Positions 6,001 to 42,600 of a DNA stretch of 64,000 nt are shown here, piece after piece (position 1 is the first letter of the stretch; the number at the start of each line of letters is the position of its first letter). Source of the DNA: Haliotis rubra (lineage: Eukaryota); assembly GCF_003918875.1 (NCBI RefSeq), contig NW_025767412.1, forward strand, positions 744,001 to 808,000, given 5' to 3'. The position numbers were made by a program.

Positions 6001-9000
6001 ACCTATCACCATATTTCAGTCAATCTGTCAATGTGCAGAAATAAACAAGCTTCCAGAACACCCAGTGTTAGGGAATCTGCTTTAATTCAAGCAATGGAAA
6101 CCCTCCACGAAGTGCCCGTATCGATTTTACAAAGATCGATAGTGAGTGCCCGTAGTGATCATCTGTACTAGCCTTAACCTCTCCTTGCTGTGCTACTGCA
6201 TACACACTGACGAACACGGCCTGTCCTACACGTGTCCACTGCTAATTCGCCGTGGGATTCGAGATGTTACACACAAGGGACATTGATTAAACTTTCTCGT
6301 TCGTGTTTTTCGGTCTTTCAAACGCCAAATTTGCTTGTTGTAAACTATTTGGGCAGTAGCGTGATTGCGTTTGCGTGTCGTAATGTAATAATGGAGTTTT
6401 ATGTGCTGCGAAGCACTCTCGTTGATTAAAGTGTTTTTTCGAAAAGAGATGGCCGAATTTACATAGCTCGACAACTGTTTGATGCGATTATACCATAAAA
6501 TTACCTTAAATACCAACGAACCTCTGTTTTGAGCTCATTTGGTGCTATCCTAATCGAGCGTATTCAAGTCAGGGTTAAACCTGCTTATAGTACCGGAAGT
6601 ACGTTATCTACTGGCATCAAAATACATTCTGCCCATGTGCATCGAGATGAGTCAATATCGTCCGACACGCTCAATTAAGGTATTATCATTAGATCAAGTT
6701 GGATACAGGTAACCAGTCTCTGTAACGAGAATATAGAGTCATCACCATGGAAACCAAACCGTGACCCCTCATTTTGATGAGGGGATGAATTATAAAACGG
6801 TCAGTCATTAAAATAATTCAGATCAGTACGTCTATTGGTATACTTCTGTTCTATCTATTATTGAATTGTATTGAAAACCATTCGTCCATGCAGATGCCTC
6901 GACACAGGAATACTCTTACACGTTTCTGTAACAAGGTCTGTACTGGCCCTATACAATTAAAAGAAAACGCGAACGACCACAGGTGCTTGTCAAATGATGT
7001 ACGACTGTTGTCGTAACAATAGCGACCTTTATCAAGCTTGAAGCACGCCATTGAAGTAATCATCTGACATTAACCTTAACAACCTCGCGTACGCCCACAC
7101 TTTACCGTTACATACAACGTGGAACTTGAAGCGTTTGATAAGGCTGTCATTCTGGAAACTATAGAACAGACAAAAATGTGGACTGGTTGGCCACAATGAC
7201 ATGTTTTGTCTTTTATAGCCTGACCCCAAAGAACCGAAGAGGCATTTTCAATGCCTACCCTATTGGACATAGGTATGACTCCGACAACAATGAGTGAGTG
7301 AGTGACTCGGTGTCTGGGTTGGTGGGTGATTGTGTGAGTGAATGGGTGGGTGAATCAGTCTAATGACGTTTTAAGCAGTATTACATTTTTAACCAGGTCT
7401 GTGGGAAGACACCTACAAACATTAGAGCGAAGATCTTACAAACCATCACTCACAGGTTTCTCGCACCACATTGGTAAGATGAGTGATCCATTATACACCC
7501 CCACCCCCCCCCGAAACTTCTACAACCACAACAACATGAACGTGAACGTGAACGCAAACGGAACATGGCAGCTGTGTCGATACCATCCGGAGTACTCATT
7601 CACCATGTGATAACGTGACCCTCAACACAGACTCCACATAATTGCCTCATTTCGCTTCACGCACTGAACGCAAACGGCTTTCCTAAATAGATGTTGATTC
7701 ACGATCTATGAAATCAACACAAACGCAAAATGAATTAACAGCAAAAACATTAAAACGACATAATGTATCACGTTTCAACACGTGCACATTCCGTTCTGTC
7801 ATTATGTCCTCATTAACTTGCACTGAGCTACCTGTACACACACACATGTTGTACGCTTCACTAAACACAATCTACAACGTCATGTATTCATATGTCGACG
7901 ATCACATTCCATCCAAATGGTTCCGGAAACAAACATCGAGACATTTGAAGACATGTATTTGAGTTGATGACTGAAATGTAACCCGACACAGAATGAATCG
8001 ATATGCAAACACCATCCCTAACAAAACACATATCTGCAATGTTGCGGATGAGAGATGAATACCTGCTTTCTGCCGTCTCATCAATAAATCAACTTATCGT
8101 GGTGGTTAGTCTCTCAACAAGAGATAAAGATGCTTTTAGAAAAAATCACAGAATCAATTCGATACTCTCACATTTCAGACCATCACATATACTACACCGT
8201 TCACTCAATACCTCATACACGATCTTTTCCGAATTATTTGAAACCCAATTTGAGAGAAGAATAAAATTTAGCTTGGGAAAGATAACACATATAATGTAAA
8301 AGAGGAAAATCAATGTTTAGAAACTCGCGAGTCCATGTTGCCAAGGCTCCACATTCTAAAGCACAGCCTTCGACCTTTCCTTCCCTTACATAATGACAGT
8401 GGGCATTGTACAGTACCCCTGGGGAATGTAAACAACACTGCTGTATTATTTTCATATTGACGACTGCTTTCCAGCGCTGTAATCTACCATTATGCAGCGG
8501 CCCACACTAACCCAGTAATCACTCACAGGGCAAAGGATTGGACGTTCTTTGCAGTATTGACCCAAAGAGCCAAACCGTGGCCCCACTGCTGCTAAACTTG
8601 TTTATTTACTGGGCATAATTTATTTAATGGTATAATTGCTCAAATAACTAAATCGAGATGGATTTGAATGACAAATATGAGATATTAGCGTTAGGTTAAT
8701 GTGAAGTCACAATAAGGTCATCCAAAACACTACACACGATCAGGCTGAGAACAGTGCCTGCTAACTGAAGATGCCGCCATGTTGGTTTGCCTACCTTGGT
8801 GGTTAAGCTAGTATTGAGCTCCCCACATCCGGGACACGTGACCTTCTCACAATCCACACACACGTTTGGACCTTCTCTGGACCCATCCTCGTTCAGTCGG
8901 ATCTCATTTTTGTTGCATATAGGGCACAGAGAACATCCGGAATCGCTAAGCTCGGACAACGATGCTTCCCTCTCAATCCGTGTGGCATATTCTATGTATT

Positions 9001-39600: not shown

Positions 39601-42600
39601 ATGCAATTCTTGACATTACGCCCAAGTCTCATATGAAGGATAATTTGTTTGTGGACGTTTCTTAATGCCCCTCTCTTGGTGTCTCACAAAGTGCTTGTGA
39701 TAGTTTTTCATTGTTTTGTTTGTTTGTTTATTCATTTATTTATTTGTTGTTTAACACAGCCCTCTGCAGCAATATTACAGCTACAGGAAGTAATGATGGC
39801 CCGATAATCCAGTGATTGACAACGTTAGCATCGATCTACGCATTTGCAATACAAGGACATGGATCAACAAAGTCAGCGAGTCTGACCATTCCATCACATT
39901 AGGCGCCTCCGAGGACAAATATGGGTTGCTGAAGACTAATTCTAAGCCGCATCTTCACAGGGTCGCGGTGTTCCAAGCTATCTGCGTAGAGAGTGTTGGT
40001 TTTGGCGTCATAGATCCTTCTCTAATGAATTTCAGAAGACCTCTTTAACGATGTGAATACAGAATACTGATGTACTACTTTATCGGCTGGACGGACTGAA
40101 CGATATATTCCAGGGTACGTTCGAGATGTATATAACTTTCAAAAGGGACATAATTAGATTTCGTAGAAACGTATCATGAGCGACTGAGTTGGATATTGCC
40201 AAATCTTTCTAACCCAAACTCAAACAGTAGCGAAAACATTTCCGATTTTTTAAAACCGTATTATGTGTATCAAGTAGGTTTAACGATGTTTTAAGCAGTG
40301 TCCAAAGCAGATTATGGAAGTAAATTTACATATAGAACCCGAAAGTAAGATAACAAGTCTATCTGGATTATTGATAATATGCCGGAACATATTCAGATGG
40401 TGGCAGTTTAAGAATGAAATACAGTGCAACTTGACATTTGGTGTTAATAAACAACATGTGACGTAAGTCAGTATTCCAAACCTTCATTCAGAACAATCAC
40501 TGGTTAACTTCAGTTTATTCTGACCTCAGGTAACATTTGTTAATCTTTATCCTTGACAACATCCTATTTATTTACCGGTCGCTGACATTATTACATCTGT
40601 TAGTGGGAGATAATGGTTGTGTAGAGCAGATAGTTACACAACTAAGCCGGCCTGTGTTCCTTAATGACCCTAGTGATGGGCTGATGTAACCTCGTCCATA
40701 CCGGTCCCTGGTCGATACGTTACCGGAAGTGCTAAAATAACTGGTAATGACGGTGCCCAGAAAGAGGCTGTGGAGGTTTAGAGATTCTATTTCTTATAAT
40801 ATTTGCCATTGCTATCATCATATTGTAATCTCTCCAAATATATGTGATACGAAAATAGCGTAAAGACATTAGCAATGTTAATTCACTAAAGAACAATATC
40901 GCAGATAATTAGAATTAGTATACGTGTGGTAAATAGGTGATGGCCTGTTTTTAACGTTAAGTACATGACACTGTTCAACATACAGTTCATCCAAAGTATA
41001 AAAAAACTATAATTATACGAGAAATGTTTTATTAAAAGACTCGTCATTAACATTCTTTTGAGGATATACATTTCTTAGGACTTTATAATGATTTTGACTG
41101 TTGTTTAAATCTCTAGAATATTGTATCAATGTGGAACGCCATGTCATGTATCTAGATAATCACCTTCAAGGTCATTCACGATTATTTTCGTTTATTGATC
41201 CGTGAAAATAAGTCACTTAACGACAAGCCAATAGTACAGTGGAACAAGGTAATTTTGATGGTTCAATATCATTTAGTTCCATTAAAGATCCATGGTCCCA
41301 AGAGACCGATCACAGTCGAACTATAAATAATGCAATACCTTGATGGAGTTACCGACACTTCTGAAAGACATGTTTGGGAGTAGGCGGGTCCATTTTGGGA
41401 TAGTCTGTAGCAATTATCTTATTGACATTTTGTGTTCCAAGCACTGATAATACGTAACAAAGGATCTAACGGGACAAGGTTTGTCACAGTTGGGAATGGT
41501 TGGGCAGATGCTTTGATGACGTCATAAGAATCAGCAGGGGGCGGAACATCAACTTTGGCAACAATGAACAATGTATCTGTTTGATTGTGTGAACGATTAT
41601 TTGTAAGAGCAGGCTTTGGTAGGTGTATGAGTGACTTCGGGCTTTGGTGTGCTTAACAGGCTTTACATGTTTCAGTTAACCTAATAGTACAGATCGATAA
41701 ACACCAAGAACCGTGCCATACTGACGTGACGTGATGATACACTTGGAACATAATACTTGTTTAGCAGTAACAACTGTTTCAGATTGACTTCCTAGATGTT
41801 TATGAATGGTATATAATTATACTCATATTTTCAATGTGAATTAATTATGCTTGCGTCAACATAAAACAACCGTTTCTGTAGAATATTAATACGAAAATAT
41901 GAATTCTAAAAGATTTACTTTTGAAAGCTTATGAACCTGCTACTATATATCTAATGAGCTTATCCATGATTTCACGTTGGCTTCCGCTTTCATGTGGATC
42001 GCTGCTGGCTTAAAGACAGCAATGAAGGGATCTCTTTTGCGTCTCATAGCAACGTCTTACCTGACAATCAAGGGAGAAGACTGTTCACATATCCACAGAA
42101 ATACACACGTGTGACAAACAATGGAAATTCCTCAGCTGAACGACCCGTGAACGGTGACTATATCCACATGCTGTTTATCATTGCTGACACATGAAGGAGT
42201 GAATCATCATTTCTGGCTGAAACCATTGGTGGACGCTCAGCCGTTAAACGATTCAGAATGCGCGTGCAGAACACGCGCTGGAAATCAATAAAAACACACG
42301 CTTAAGATGATTAATTTAACATGTGAGATCTTACCTGACCCGCATCTGCTCTTGAGCTTGCATATTCTTGGCGCGATCCATCACGCTCTTTATCTTGGCA
42401 ACTTCCTCTGGACTTAGGTGGCTGAGATCAGGCTCGGGCGGCAACGTCGGGGAAGGCGCCCTTGTGGAGGGGACAGAGGACCGGGGACGGGACCCCAGGG
42501 AATACGAGTACATAGATGCATACTCAGAAAGTGGTGTGCTGCATTCAGACGAGTGAGCACTCCCCTCGTTGCCCATTACTATCTGAATAGCACGGATCAC

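What the first reader, a model, noticed from the sequence alone, without database searches (positions are those of the whole stretch)
8795..42576. Invertebrate Piccolo/Bassoon-like gene with the vertebrate-type myristoylatable MGNE N-terminus
Seen: two phase-matched exons give MGNEGS (fits MGxxxS), a DLSHLSPEE..VMDRAK helix and a CPIC...CVDC..VTCPGCG zinc finger. Established: vertebrate Piccolo and Bassoon begin MGNEAS/MGNEVS and Bassoon is N-myristoylated; they were long regarded as vertebrate-specific, with Fife (fly) and Clarinet (worm) as divergent relatives. Inference: the myristoyl + helix + zinc-finger module predates the protostome/deuterostome split and survives in molluscs.
[Added by the scan's program, not by the reader: the finding's places include an assembly gap (unread letters, written N; its length is only estimated) at 18355 to 18614, 35351 to 35571, 36060 to 36191. 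Whether the letters on both sides are continuous or in frame is not known: test that first.]
Basis: partly seen in the sequence, partly recalled or inferred. Interest (0 to 1): 0.65.

Follow-up and report, generated by a model that had tools for sequence, protein, structure and literature searches.

The report
Abalone Piccolo gene's first two exons
These two exons encode the start of an abalone version of the synaptic scaffold protein Piccolo; its lipid-anchor signal, helix and zinc finger are shared with vertebrates, but the gene family is already known from molluscs.

Summary
On the minus strand, 42576-42335 and 9014-8795 are two phase-matched coding exons with good splice signals. They encode MGNEGS, a roughly 45-residue Ser-rich linker, a PDLSHLSPEE helix, and six of the eight Cys of a double zinc finger. 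The last CxxC lies in an exon outside the window. All three assembly gaps sit in the 33-kb intron.

A RefSeq model from Haliotis cracherodii (2665 aa) contains exon 1 at 80 of 80 and exon 2 at 72 of 73 residues. It joins them at exactly this junction and continues to a PDZ and a C2 domain. Both domains match solved Piccolo domains better than RIM.

All 24 invertebrate relatives and all 29 vertebrate Piccolo proteins with a full N-terminus begin MGN..S. The helix is homologous between the two groups (hhalign 97%).

As a whole, the N-terminal module is a contiguous rabphilin/RIM-type Rab-binding domain.

Mollusc Piccolo is already published (Orvis 2022). Only the conserved myristoylation motif and the intact Rab-binding-type domain seem undescribed. 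Fife was not excluded, and neither the transcript nor the lipid modification was tested.

The parts
42335..42576 (-). Coding exon 1: 80 codons plus the two bases AG (phase 2). It encodes the MGNEGS start, a Ser/Pro-rich linker and the first part of a long helix.
   Evidence: Identical (80 of 80) to residues 44-123 of Haliotis cracherodii P0047. Best hit E 1e-27, to Gigantopelta 'protein piccolo-like'.
42559..42576 (-). Codons for M-G-N-E-G-S, an N-myristoylation-type start (Gly2, Ser6). The ATG context is gtaATGg, with a purine at -3 and G at +4.
   Evidence: A PROSITE-style pattern (recalled) is passed by 24 of 24 invertebrate and 29 of 29 vertebrate sequences. Ungapped identity among 11 mollusc sequences is 62% for residues +1 to +12 and 12.7% for -30 to -1.
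42337..42435 (-). EPDLSHLSPEEVAKIKSVMDRAKNMQAQEQMRV: the start of helix alpha-1 of the Rab-binding-type domain. It is homologous to DLSQLSEEERRQIAAVMSR of vertebrate Piccolo and to the N-terminal helix of RIM.
   Evidence: translation. RIM2, 34.7 bits, E 4e-7; the invertebrate profile hits vertebrate Piccolo N-termini at 14.5-26.7 bits; hhalign 97.1%, E 7e-11. Wang 1999 passage. AF2 helix 97-144 of P0003, pLDDT 91-97, spanning the exon junction.
42329..42334 (-). Splice donor of intron 1 (CAG|gtaaga).
   Evidence: The junction is confirmed by orthologous gene models.
9015..42334 (-). Intron 1, about 33.3 kb. It holds the three assembly gaps, an (AGT)n array and SINE-like repeats. No coding exon of this gene was detected in it.
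8795..9014 (-). Coding exon 2: the base G completing the Arg codon, plus 73 codons. It encodes the rest of helix alpha-1 (NLEEEYIEYATRIEREASLSEL) and the first six Cys of the double zinc finger.
   Evidence: Identity to P0047 is 72 of 73. There were 31 hits at E <= 0.001. Of the 28 short hits, 23 read on with V exactly where the window has K|gtaggc, 1 reads on with R, 3 end there and 1 is spliced on to exon 3 (7 of the 23 were judged by eye).
8822..8926 (-). CPICNKNEIRLNEDGSREGPNVCVDCEKVTCPGCG: zinc-finger Cys pairs 1 to 3 (CX2C-X18-CX2C-X4-CX2C). Pair 4 lies in exon 3, beyond the low end of the window.
   Evidence: chicken Piccolo ZnF1 29.3 bits, E 6e-5, and ZnF2 28.9 bits, E 9e-5. RIM2 22.7 bits, E 0.004; zf-piccolo 15.3 bits and FYVE_2 14.2 bits, both below cut-off for the exon alone; no W.C..C on the minus strand.
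8789..8794 (-). Splice donor of intron 2 (AAG|gtaggc).
   Evidence: In P0047 the protein continues AQEWVCLVC... after TTK.
42703..42705 (-). Upstream in-frame ATG, 43 codons before MGNEGS, in a weak context (tctATGc). It is followed by a pyrimidine-rich tract and a possible acceptor (ctattcag) 6 bases before the MGN ATG. The RefSeq model of H. cracherodii starts here.

Best explanation
The window holds the first two coding exons of the abalone (Haliotis) orthologue of the presynaptic active-zone scaffold Piccolo/Aczonin.

Shown:
- The exons, their phases and their splice signals.
- Their near-identity to a 2665-aa Haliotis protein with FYVE_2, PDZ and C2 domains.
- Conservation of the MGN..S start, the DLSHL(S/T)xEE helix and the finger across molluscs, a brachiopod, hemichordates, echinoderms and vertebrate Piccolo.

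Inferred mechanism:
1. Translation starts at the ATG at 42576. The Met is removed and Gly2 is N-myristoylated, which gives a weak membrane anchor as described for Bassoon.
2. A disordered Ser-rich linker of about 45 residues follows.
3. Next comes a long helix that crosses the exon junction, then a two-zinc finger, then an [ST]G.W[FYH] motif encoded in exon 3. Together these form a contiguous rabphilin/RIM-type Rab-binding domain.
4. This domain would most likely hold a GTP-bound Rab3/Rab27-type GTPase on a vesicle, while the distant PDZ-C2A end sits at the release site.

In vertebrates the same helix survives next to the MGNE start, but repeat expansion has separated it from the fingers. The finger is duplicated and the SGAWF-type motif is lost.
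For: - Exon anatomy.
- Orthologue: P0047 holds exon 1 at 80 of 80 and exon 2 at 72 of 73, with junction MRVR|NLEEEY. tblastn of Gigantopelta P0003 breaks at the same residue.
- Architecture of P0047: FYVE_2 51 bits, PDZ 42.6 bits, C2 92.7 bits.
- PDB: Piccolo C2A 1rh8 scores 150 bits against 95 and 89 for RIM2. PDZ 1ujd scores 95.8 bits against 50.4 for RIM2.
- BLASTP of P0047 against chicken Piccolo: C2A 57% identity, PDZ 44%, both fingers E about 5e-9. One extra collinear motif reaches significance (KFSPIxE, E 6e-4 to chicken and 2e-5 to gar). A second (RP.T..LSPI.D.SP) is significant only for amphioxus against chicken (E about 7e-4); for P0047 it is E 0.22.
- PDZ-C2A tree rooted on RIM2 follows the species tree, with amphioxus plus vertebrate Piccolo at 91/90.
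- MGN..S start in 24 of 24 invertebrate and 29 of 29 vertebrate sequences.
- Helix homology: hmmsearch 14.5-26.7 bits; hhalign 97.1%, E 7e-11.
- Rab-binding type: the only PDB hit of P0003 is rabphilin-3A 1zbd_B, E 5.5e-7, over helix, finger and the SGAWF region. [ST]G.W[FYH] follows the finger in 12 of 12 invertebrate members and in RIM2, and in 0 of 2 vertebrate Piccolo checked.
- Literature passages: Bassoon MGNEASLEG as a functional myristoylation site; the aczonin/Rim 19-residue motif and the loss of SGAWFF.
Against: - Each exon alone is below every Pfam cut-off: FYVE_2 12.8 and 14.2 bits, zf-piccolo 15.3 bits. zf-piccolo is also below cut-off in P0047 itself (25 against 30).
- BLASTP of exon 1 against chicken Piccolo found no N-terminal match (best 20 bits, E 0.16, elsewhere in the protein). 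It did match RIM2 at E 4e-7.
- The whole N-terminal module scores higher with RIM2 (78.6 bits) than with Piccolo fingers (51 bits).
- The AU test did not reject a tree in which all invertebrate sequences are held apart from vertebrate Piccolo (p 0.078).
- No Fife, Clarinet or 'Chalumeau' sequence was in the tree, and only one RIM.
- The amphioxus models start MWLRK...MGSDTE, not MGN.
- The RefSeq abalone model starts at the upstream ATG.
- No transcript data were available, and no test of myristoylation or Rab binding was made.
- Aczonin fingers did not bind Rab3A.
- A G2A Bassoon still orients correctly at the Golgi.
- The AF2 model is confident only for the helix (mean pLDDT 41.8, finger 50-57).
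Confidence: 0.8

Rival explanations
1. The gene is the spiralian Fife paralogue, not the Piccolo orthologue. Orvis et al. report that Aplysia has RIM, Piccolo and a Fife-like gene.
For: - Fife also has a zinc finger, a PDZ and C2 domains (passage).
- No Fife sequence could be fetched, so nothing here excludes it directly.
- The AU test leaves room for an invertebrate-only clade (p 0.078).
- Orvis et al. say echinoderms and lancelets lack Piccolo, yet this family has members there.
- There is one finger, not two.
Against: - The ML tree nests vertebrate Piccolo inside the deuterostome members (amphioxus plus vertebrates 91/90).
- The MGNE start and collinear motifs outside the domains are shared with vertebrate Piccolo.
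- NCBI and UniRef name the Gigantopelta, Pinctada and Branchiostoma members piccolo or PCLO. These names are automatic.
- Fife is said to be smaller, while these proteins have 2244-3446 residues.
Confidence: 0.1
2. The exons belong to a RIM, rabphilin, Noc2 or Slp type Rab effector.
For: - The exon 1 helix matches RIM2 (E 4e-7).
- FYVE_2 outscores zf-piccolo in every member.
- The only PDB hit of the N-terminal part is rabphilin-3A.
- The nearest Atlas clusters are rabphilin (0.90) and RIM fingers (0.89, 0.88).
Against: - The orthologue's PDZ and C2A match Piccolo far better than RIM.
- RIM2a_ZnF is hit by 0 of 7 members but scores 100.7 bits in fish RIM2.
- Exon 2 matches Piccolo fingers better than RIM.
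- Fish RIM2 starts MSAPEMPDLSHL, with no MGN and no linker.
- From recalled knowledge, rabphilin and Slp have no PDZ.
Confidence: 0.03
3. The gene is Piccolo-like, but translation starts at the upstream in-frame ATG at 42705. MGNEGS would then be internal and not myristoylated.
For: - The frame is open from 42720.
- The RefSeq H. cracherodii model and the Gigantopelta, Pinctada and Mytilus models all start upstream of MGN.
- The upstream peptide is hydrophobic and folds as a confident helix in the AF2 model of P0003 (residues 16-42).
Against: - Upstream identity among 11 mollusc sequences is 12.7%, against 62% just after the Met.
- Nine models (Lingula, Ptychodera, Saccoglossus, three starfish and the crinoid Antedon among invertebrates, chicken and gar among vertebrates) start exactly at MGN.
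- The upstream ATG has T at -3 and C at +4, while the MGN ATG has G at both.
- The upstream tract is pyrimidine-rich, which keeps frames open and yields Leu/Ser/Phe/Cys codons by composition. It ends in a possible acceptor, ctattcag.
Confidence: 0.1

Closest known systems
Vertebrate Piccolo/Aczonin (PCLO)
   Same: - MGNE[AG]S start (29 of 29 sequences).
- N-terminal DLSxLSxEE helix.
- Finger of the same Cys spacing class.
- In the abalone orthologue, the PDZ and C2A are most like Piccolo's.
- One short collinear motif outside the domains reaches significance for the abalone orthologue, and a second for amphioxus only.
- Isoforms with C2A only are known in mouse.
   Different: - One finger, not two.
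- Helix, finger and an [ST]G.W[FYH] motif are contiguous. In chicken the helix is at residue 40 and the fingers at 446 and 916.
- The SGAWF-type motif is present here and absent in vertebrates.
- The protein is about half the length.
- No Q/P 10-mer repeats were seen.
Bassoon (BSN)
   Same: Published N-terminus MGNEASLEG with a functional N-myristoylation site. The first 94-97 residues are needed for Golgi orientation (passages).
   Different: No Bassoon sequence was fetched, so nothing was compared directly. From recalled knowledge, Bassoon has no PDZ or C2. Orvis et al. take it as a vertebrate duplicate of Piccolo.
Invertebrate Piccolo of Orvis et al. 2022 (Aplysia, Octopus, arthropods)
   Same: Probably the same gene family. 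It is a mollusc RIM-superfamily member with finger, helix, PDZ and C2, placed with vertebrate Piccolo.
   Different: Their accession numbers are in supplements I could not open, so identity with this gene is unverified. They state that echinoderms and lancelets lack Piccolo, whereas this family has clear members in both. Their main text has 0 occurrences of 'myristoyl'.
RIM1/2 N-terminal Rab3/Munc13-binding module
   Same: Contiguous helix, finger and SGAWF-type motif. P0047 residues 89-222 align to fish RIM2 residues 4-133 at 78.6 bits. The PDLSHL(T/S)xEE helix is 53% identical over 32 residues.
   Different: No hit to the RIM2a_ZnF model (0 of 7). RIM has no MGN start and no linker. The PDZ and C2A are more distant.
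Rabphilin-3A Rab-binding domain (PDB 1ZBD chain B)
   Same: The only solved structure matched by the N-terminal part of the Gigantopelta orthologue: E 5.5e-7, residues 94-229 to 9-129, covering alpha-1, the finger and the SGAWF region.
   Different: From recalled knowledge, rabphilin has two C2 domains, no PDZ and no myristoylation start.
Fife (Drosophila) and Clarinet/CLA-1 (C. elegans)
   Same: Piccolo/RIM-related active-zone scaffolds with finger, PDZ and C2 (Fife).

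Membership tests
Piccolo/Aczonin | Piccolo-type zinc finger (Pfam PF05715, cut-off 30 bits) | tested here: inconclusive
   Exon 2 alone scores 15.3 bits and holds 6 of the 8 Cys. Of 7 full-length invertebrate members scanned, 4 reach the cut-off (P0003 33.2, P0026 31.1, P0050 36.7, P0051 32.9). Two fall below it (P0047 25.0, P0049 29.5), and P0048 has no listed match.
Piccolo/Aczonin | C-terminal PDZ and C2A closest to Piccolo's | tested here: met
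   Tested on the orthologue P0047, not on the window, which lacks these exons. Piccolo C2A 1rh8 scores 150 bits against 95 for RIM2. PDZ 1ujd scores 95.8 against 50.4 for RIM2. Identity to chicken Piccolo is 57% for C2A and 44% for PDZ.
Piccolo/Aczonin | N-terminal MGNE[AG]S start followed by the DLSxLSEEE helix | tested here: met
   The window has MGNEGS, with the helix at residue 50. The 29 vertebrate Piccolo begin MGNE[AG]S, and the helix pattern was found at residues 21-46 in 25 of them; 4 did not match the pattern. hhalign gives 97.1%.
Piccolo/Aczonin | Two zinc fingers separated by spacer repeats | tested here: not met
   There is a single finger in all 12 invertebrate members examined. 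This is a vertebrate feature, and teleosts have even more fingers (listing of PMC3484663; 12 stretches in P0039).
Piccolo/Aczonin | Orthology by phylogeny against RIM, Fife and Clarinet | tested here: inconclusive
   The PDZ-C2A ML tree rooted on one RIM2 follows the species tree. The AU test of the alternative gives p 0.078. No Fife or Clarinet was included.
Piccolo/Aczonin | Piccolo-Bassoon homology blocks outside the domains | tested here: inconclusive
   Two short collinear motifs were seen. KFSPIxE gives E 2e-5 for P0047 against gar. LSPI.D.SP gives E about 7e-4 for amphioxus against chicken (6.4e-4, 8.05e-4) but 0.22 for P0047. Coiled-coil regions were not tested.
Rab-binding domain, FYVE_2 (PF02318; rabphilin/RIM/Slp type) | Helix alpha-1, double zinc finger and SGAWF-type motif, above the 27.2-bit cut-off | tested here: met
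   P0047 scores 51 bits over profile positions 1-115 of 118, and 7 of 7 members are above the cut-off. The window's exons alone score 12.8 bits (profile 1-29) and 14.2 bits (profile 34-90). They are collinear but sub-threshold. The SGAWF-type motif is in exon 3, outside the window.
RIM | RIM-type zinc finger (PF22601 RIM2a_ZnF) | tested here: not met
   0 of 7 members are listed at E <= 0.001, while fish RIM2 scores 100.7 bits.
N-myristoylated proteins | Met-Gly start with a small or uncharged residue 3 and Ser/Thr at residue 6 | tested here: met
   The pattern is recalled from PROSITE PS00008. The window and 24 of 24 invertebrate sequences pass it.
N-myristoylated proteins | Covalent myristate on Gly2 | not testable with these tools
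   This needs metabolic labelling or mass spectrometry. It also depends on the start codon, given the upstream ATG at 42705.
Fife | Grouping with Drosophila Fife in a tree | not tested

The most novel reading that the evidence does not exclude
The ancestral bilaterian Piccolo was a lipid-anchored Rab effector. It had an N-myristoyl group, a flexible linker of about 45 residues, and an intact rabphilin/RIM-type Rab-binding domain (helix, finger, SGAWF-type motif).

Molluscs, brachiopods, hemichordates and echinoderms still have this form. Vertebrates split the domain by repeat expansion, duplicated the finger and lost Rab binding. That left the 'orphan' DLSQLSEEE helix beside the myristoyl group, which may be the unexplained element in Bassoon's first 95 residues that orients it on Golgi membranes.

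A corollary concerns the echinoderm and lancelet genes that Orvis et al. separate from Piccolo (perhaps their 'Chalumeau'). On this reading they are plain Piccolo orthologues.
Probability: 0.45. Interest if true: 0.5.

Novelty: new member of a known kind. Interest (0 to 1): 0.3.

Why it matters
It matters modestly. Piccolo and Bassoon organise vertebrate release sites, and their N-termini are poorly understood.

The invertebrate orthologues show that the myristoylation start and the short N-terminal helix are as old as Bilateria. The helix was once the first helix of a complete Rab-binding domain. This gives a concrete, testable idea of what the vertebrate N-terminus is a remnant of.

It also offers a compact version of the protein (2200-2700 residues, one finger) for experiments. 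And it flags a possible mis-assignment of the echinoderm and amphioxus genes in the published family tree.

It does not change the established view that Piccolo predates vertebrates.

Tried and rejected
- Pfam on each exon alone gave only sub-threshold matches. TerY_C (0.0099) and other small zinc-ribbon models were treated as noise.
- BLASTP of exon 1 against full-length chicken Piccolo missed the N-terminal helix. I think this is because only one 3-residue word on that diagonal reaches the seeding threshold (my reasoning, not a tool result). Profile methods then found it.
- The best-scoring hit of the exon 2 search, P0016 (E 1.8e-33, 12 stretches), is an Ig-repeat protein and was discarded.
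- Exon 3 was looked for in the window by tblastn and by a W.C..C scan and is not there.
- The AU test for vertebrate Piccolo nesting among the invertebrate genes was not significant (p 0.078).
- The AF2 model of the Gigantopelta orthologue with a 12-row alignment was poor (mean pLDDT 41.8). Only helix 97-144 and the probably untranslated upstream helix were confident. For that reason I did not run fold search.
- The Atlas search gave leads only: rabphilin 0.90, RIM 0.89, zf-piccolo 0.82.
- The 2012 Fife paper is not held, and a literature search with a two-letter term failed.
- No complex prediction was sent, because no eukaryotic Rab was available as a partner.
- Not checked:
  - Metagenome contigs and viral contigs, which are closed.
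  - Genome contigs, which holds bacteria and archaea only and is not relevant.
  - Paper supplements, which are closed. Orvis Dataset S1 and the SI figures would say which accessions are their Piccolo, Fife and Chalumeau.
  - Bassoon, Fife and Clarinet sequences.

Full report
WHAT IS IN THE WINDOW

On the minus strand an ATG at 42576 opens a frame that reads MGNEGSAHSSECSTPLSEYASMYSYSLGSRPRSSVPSTRAPSPTLPPEPDLSHLSPEEVAKIKSVMDRAKNMQAQEQMRV. It then ends with the bases AG before a consensus donor, CAG|gtaaga.

About 33.3 kb downstream, a strong acceptor (tcttctctactttcag) is followed by G at 9014. This base completes an Arg codon. The frame continues NLEEEYIEYATRIEREASLSELSDSGCSLCPICNKNEIRLNEDGSREGPNVCVDCEKVTCPGCGELNTSLTTK up to the donor AAG|gtaggc at 8794.

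The finger is incomplete in the window. Three Cys pairs are present (CX2C-X18-CX2C-X4-CX2C). The fourth pair (W.C..C) is found nowhere on the minus strand, and tblastn with a full-length relative finds only these two exons. Exon 3 therefore lies beyond the low end of the window.

ASSEMBLY GAPS

All three gaps (18355-18614, 35351-35571, 36060-36191) lie inside intron 1. The first abuts (GTAT)n/(GT)n repeats. The other two interrupt a 1.4-kb (AGT)n array at 35229-36664.

Orthologous proteins pass from ...MRVR directly into NLEEEY... with no extra residues. No coding exon is hidden in a gap, and the reading frame does not depend on the gaps. I did not fill them or look up their letters.

EXON-BY-EXON SEARCHES

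P0001 (exon 1) and P0002 (exon 2) were searched separately, and natural database proteins stood in for the joined product.

Each exon alone is below every Pfam cut-off. The two weak FYVE_2 matches are collinear, at profile positions 1-29 and 34-90 of 118.

Exon 1 found 13 proteins at E <= 0.001 among 96 candidates. One is Gigantopelta aegis 'protein piccolo-like' (E 1e-27). The other 12 are frames of 141-389 residues that end at, or shortly after, the end of exon 1; three carry a source name and nine have none. All 13 contain MGNEGS.

Exon 2 found 31 representatives at E <= 0.001:
- The top one is a spurious Ig-repeat protein.
- One is a 7214-residue Piccolo-like protein with many fingers.
- One is the full-length Lingula protein.
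- The other 28 are short frames. Of these, 23 read on with Val exactly where the window has K|gt, 1 reads on with Arg, 3 end there, and 1 is spliced on to ...EWVC..C...STGLWYHG (7 of the 23 were judged by eye because my pattern caught the earlier Cys pair).

The exon boundaries are thus conserved widely.

THE GENE

A RefSeq protein of Haliotis cracherodii (P0047, 2665 aa, named 'uncharacterized protein') contains exon 1 at 80 of 80 and exon 2 at 72 of 73 residues, joined as MRVR|NLEEEY. The window is therefore abalone DNA.

P0047 has FYVE_2 (51 bits), PDZ (42.6 bits) and one C2 (92.7 bits). zf-piccolo scores 25 bits, under its cut-off of 30.

Against solved structures:
- Its C2 is closest to Piccolo C2A (1rh8, 150 bits; RIM2 95 and 89 bits).
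- Its PDZ is closest to 1ujd (95.8 bits; RIM2 50.4 bits). 1ujd is 'KIAA0559', which I recall to be human Piccolo.

Against chicken Piccolo, C2A is 57% identical, PDZ is 44% identical, and the finger matches both Piccolo fingers at E about 5e-9.

Short motifs outside the domains are collinear with vertebrate Piccolo:
- KHKK..KFSPIxE..D: abalone 1495-1534 against gar 4077-4116, E 2e-5.
- RP.T..LSPI.D.SP: amphioxus against chicken, E about 7e-4 (6.4e-4, 8.05e-4); abalone only E 0.22.

Full-length relatives with the same layout occur in several phyla:
- Bivalves: Pinctada, Mytilus.
- Brachiopod: Lingula.
- Hemichordates: Ptychodera, Saccoglossus.
- Starfish: Patiria, Asterias, Acanthaster.
- Crinoids: Antedon, Anneissia.
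- Amphioxus: Branchiostoma.

A PDZ-C2A maximum-likelihood tree of 18 rows, rooted on the one RIM2 I had, follows the species tree. Lophotrochozoa is recovered as a group only weakly (71/46; drawn open in the tree), Ambulacraria has 98/97 support, and amphioxus plus vertebrate Piccolo has 91/90.

This is the pattern of one orthologous family. However, the AU test does not reject holding all invertebrate rows apart from vertebrate Piccolo (p 0.078), and no Fife, Clarinet or second RIM was in the tree.

THE N-TERMINUS COMPARED WITH VERTEBRATES

All 29 fetched vertebrate Piccolo proteins that have an N-terminus begin MGNE[AG]S. Frogs have MGNEGS, like the abalone. All 24 invertebrate sequences begin MGN..S. 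All 53 pass a PROSITE-style myristoylation pattern, which I recalled.

The DLS helix starts at residue 41-55 in invertebrates. In vertebrates it starts at residue 21-46 in the 25 of 29 sequences where my pattern found it.

BLASTP of exon 1 against chicken Piccolo missed the helix, while it matched fish RIM2 at E 4e-7. Profile methods recover it:
- An HMM of 23 invertebrate exon-1 equivalents hits vertebrate Piccolo N-termini at 14.5-26.7 bits, and RIM2 at 27.6 bits.
- hhalign of the two alignments gives 97.1% probability, E 7e-11.

The helix is therefore shared by Piccolo and RIM, as Wang et al. noted in 1999 for aczonin and Rim (passage). It is the MGN start and the linker that are Piccolo-specific among what I could compare.

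The only Bassoon N-terminus I saw is MGNEASLEG, in a passage of PMC2172332 that cites Dresbach 2003 for functional myristoylation (also passages of the 2021 preprint). 'MGNEVS' occurs in no held paper.

START CODON

An in-frame ATG lies 43 codons upstream, at 42705, and several automatic models start upstream of MGN. Four things speak against using it:
- Identity among 11 mollusc sequences is 12.7% upstream and 62% just after the Met.
- Models from five other phyla or classes start exactly at MGN.
- The upstream ATG has a weak context, while the MGN ATG has G at -3 and +4.
- The intervening tract is pyrimidine-rich and ends in a possible acceptor.

Only transcript data can settle this.

WHAT THE MODULE IS LIKE

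Taken whole, the N-terminal module is a rabphilin/RIM-type Rab-binding domain:
- FYVE_2 is matched end to end and above cut-off in 7 of 7 members.
- The only PDB hit of the Gigantopelta protein is rabphilin-3A in its Rab3A complex (1zbd_B, E 5.5e-7), across helix, finger and the SGAWF region.
- [ST]G.W[FYH] follows the finger in 12 of 12 invertebrate members and in RIM2, and in neither of 2 vertebrate Piccolo checked. This agrees with Wang et al., who also found no Rab3A binding by aczonin fingers.
- The Atlas places the module nearest rabphilin and RIM fingers, which is a lead only.
- The AF2 model is poor overall (mean pLDDT 41.8). It does give one confident 48-residue helix that runs straight across the exon 1/exon 2 junction, and a disordered MGN linker.

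It is not a RIM. RIM2a_ZnF is hit by 0 of 7 members, and exon 2 matches Piccolo fingers better than RIM's.

MECHANISM

Shown: the gene structure and the conservation.

Inferred:
- Gly2 is myristoylated and gives a weak membrane hold.
- The linker lets the Rab-binding-type domain reach a vesicle Rab.
- The far C-terminal PDZ-C2A sits at the release site.

Vertebrates kept the myristoyl start and the helix. They pushed the fingers hundreds of residues away, duplicated them and lost the SGAWF-type motif.

WHAT IS KNOWN AND WHAT IS NEW

Orvis et al. 2022 (section 12 read) already report Piccolo in Aplysia, Octopus and most protostomes, and place its origin before the protostome-deuterostome split. 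PMC10657410 (passages) shows it is expressed in the Aplysia nervous system. The core inference is therefore in print.

I found no paper mentioning the conserved myristoylation start in invertebrates. The searches were made, and the Orvis main text has 0 occurrences of 'myristoyl'.

Their statement that echinoderms and lancelets lack Piccolo sits oddly with the clear members found here. These may be what they call Chalumeau or deuterostome Fife, and I could not check.

VERDICT

This is a real, correctly read gene start of an abalone Piccolo orthologue.

Noticed in passing
window 35229-36664: A trinucleotide (AGT)n/(GTA)n array of about 1.4 kb, broken by two assembly gaps. GC skew rises to +0.27 to +0.29 over 34-38 kb.
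   Followed up: partly
window 45156-45839 (-): A 227-codon open frame with a Tc3-type transposase HTH (PF01498, 30.7 bits, just under the 31.5 cut-off). It looks like a Tc1/mariner remnant upstream of the gene.
   Followed up: partly
window 51210-52139 (-): A 309-codon open frame, the longest in the window, with a weak sub-threshold SEFIR match (16.6 bits against a cut-off of 23). It may be an exon of an IL-17-receptor-like neighbour gene.
   Followed up: partly
window 46859-46927 (+); similar peptides at 29116-29427, 31610-31849, 46846-47064, 50006-50218, 56741-56977: A tRNA-like match (Rfam RF00005, 30 bits). Repeated frames read ...GTPE.G.AHCT..GNRTRV..V..ERFNHWAT.... They look like copies of a tRNA-derived SINE scattered through the window, including intron 1.
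   Followed up: no
window 21831-22018: A 72-bp tandem repeat, 2.6 copies, 96% matches, inside intron 1.
   Followed up: no
window 42577-42720 (-): The frame stays open for 48 codons upstream of the MGN ATG, through a pyrimidine-rich tract that translates as a hydrophobic peptide. Similar open, hydrophobic but unconserved upstream frames occur in other molluscs, and automatic gene models start in them. AF2 even folds the Gigantopelta one as a confident helix.
   Followed up: partly
P0050, P0051, P0052, P0056-P0062, P0069 (database proteins, not the window): Hemichordate, echinoderm and amphioxus proteins share the whole layout (MGN start except in amphioxus, helix, one finger, PDZ, C2A, C2B) and fall between lophotrochozoan and vertebrate Piccolo in the tree. 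The published account says echinoderms and lancelets lack Piccolo.
   Followed up: partly
P0016 (database protein): The best E-value of the exon 2 search (1.8e-33) belonged to an unrelated Ig-repeat protein. It was matched in 12 stretches, which shows that summed scores on repeat proteins can top a list.
   Followed up: yes
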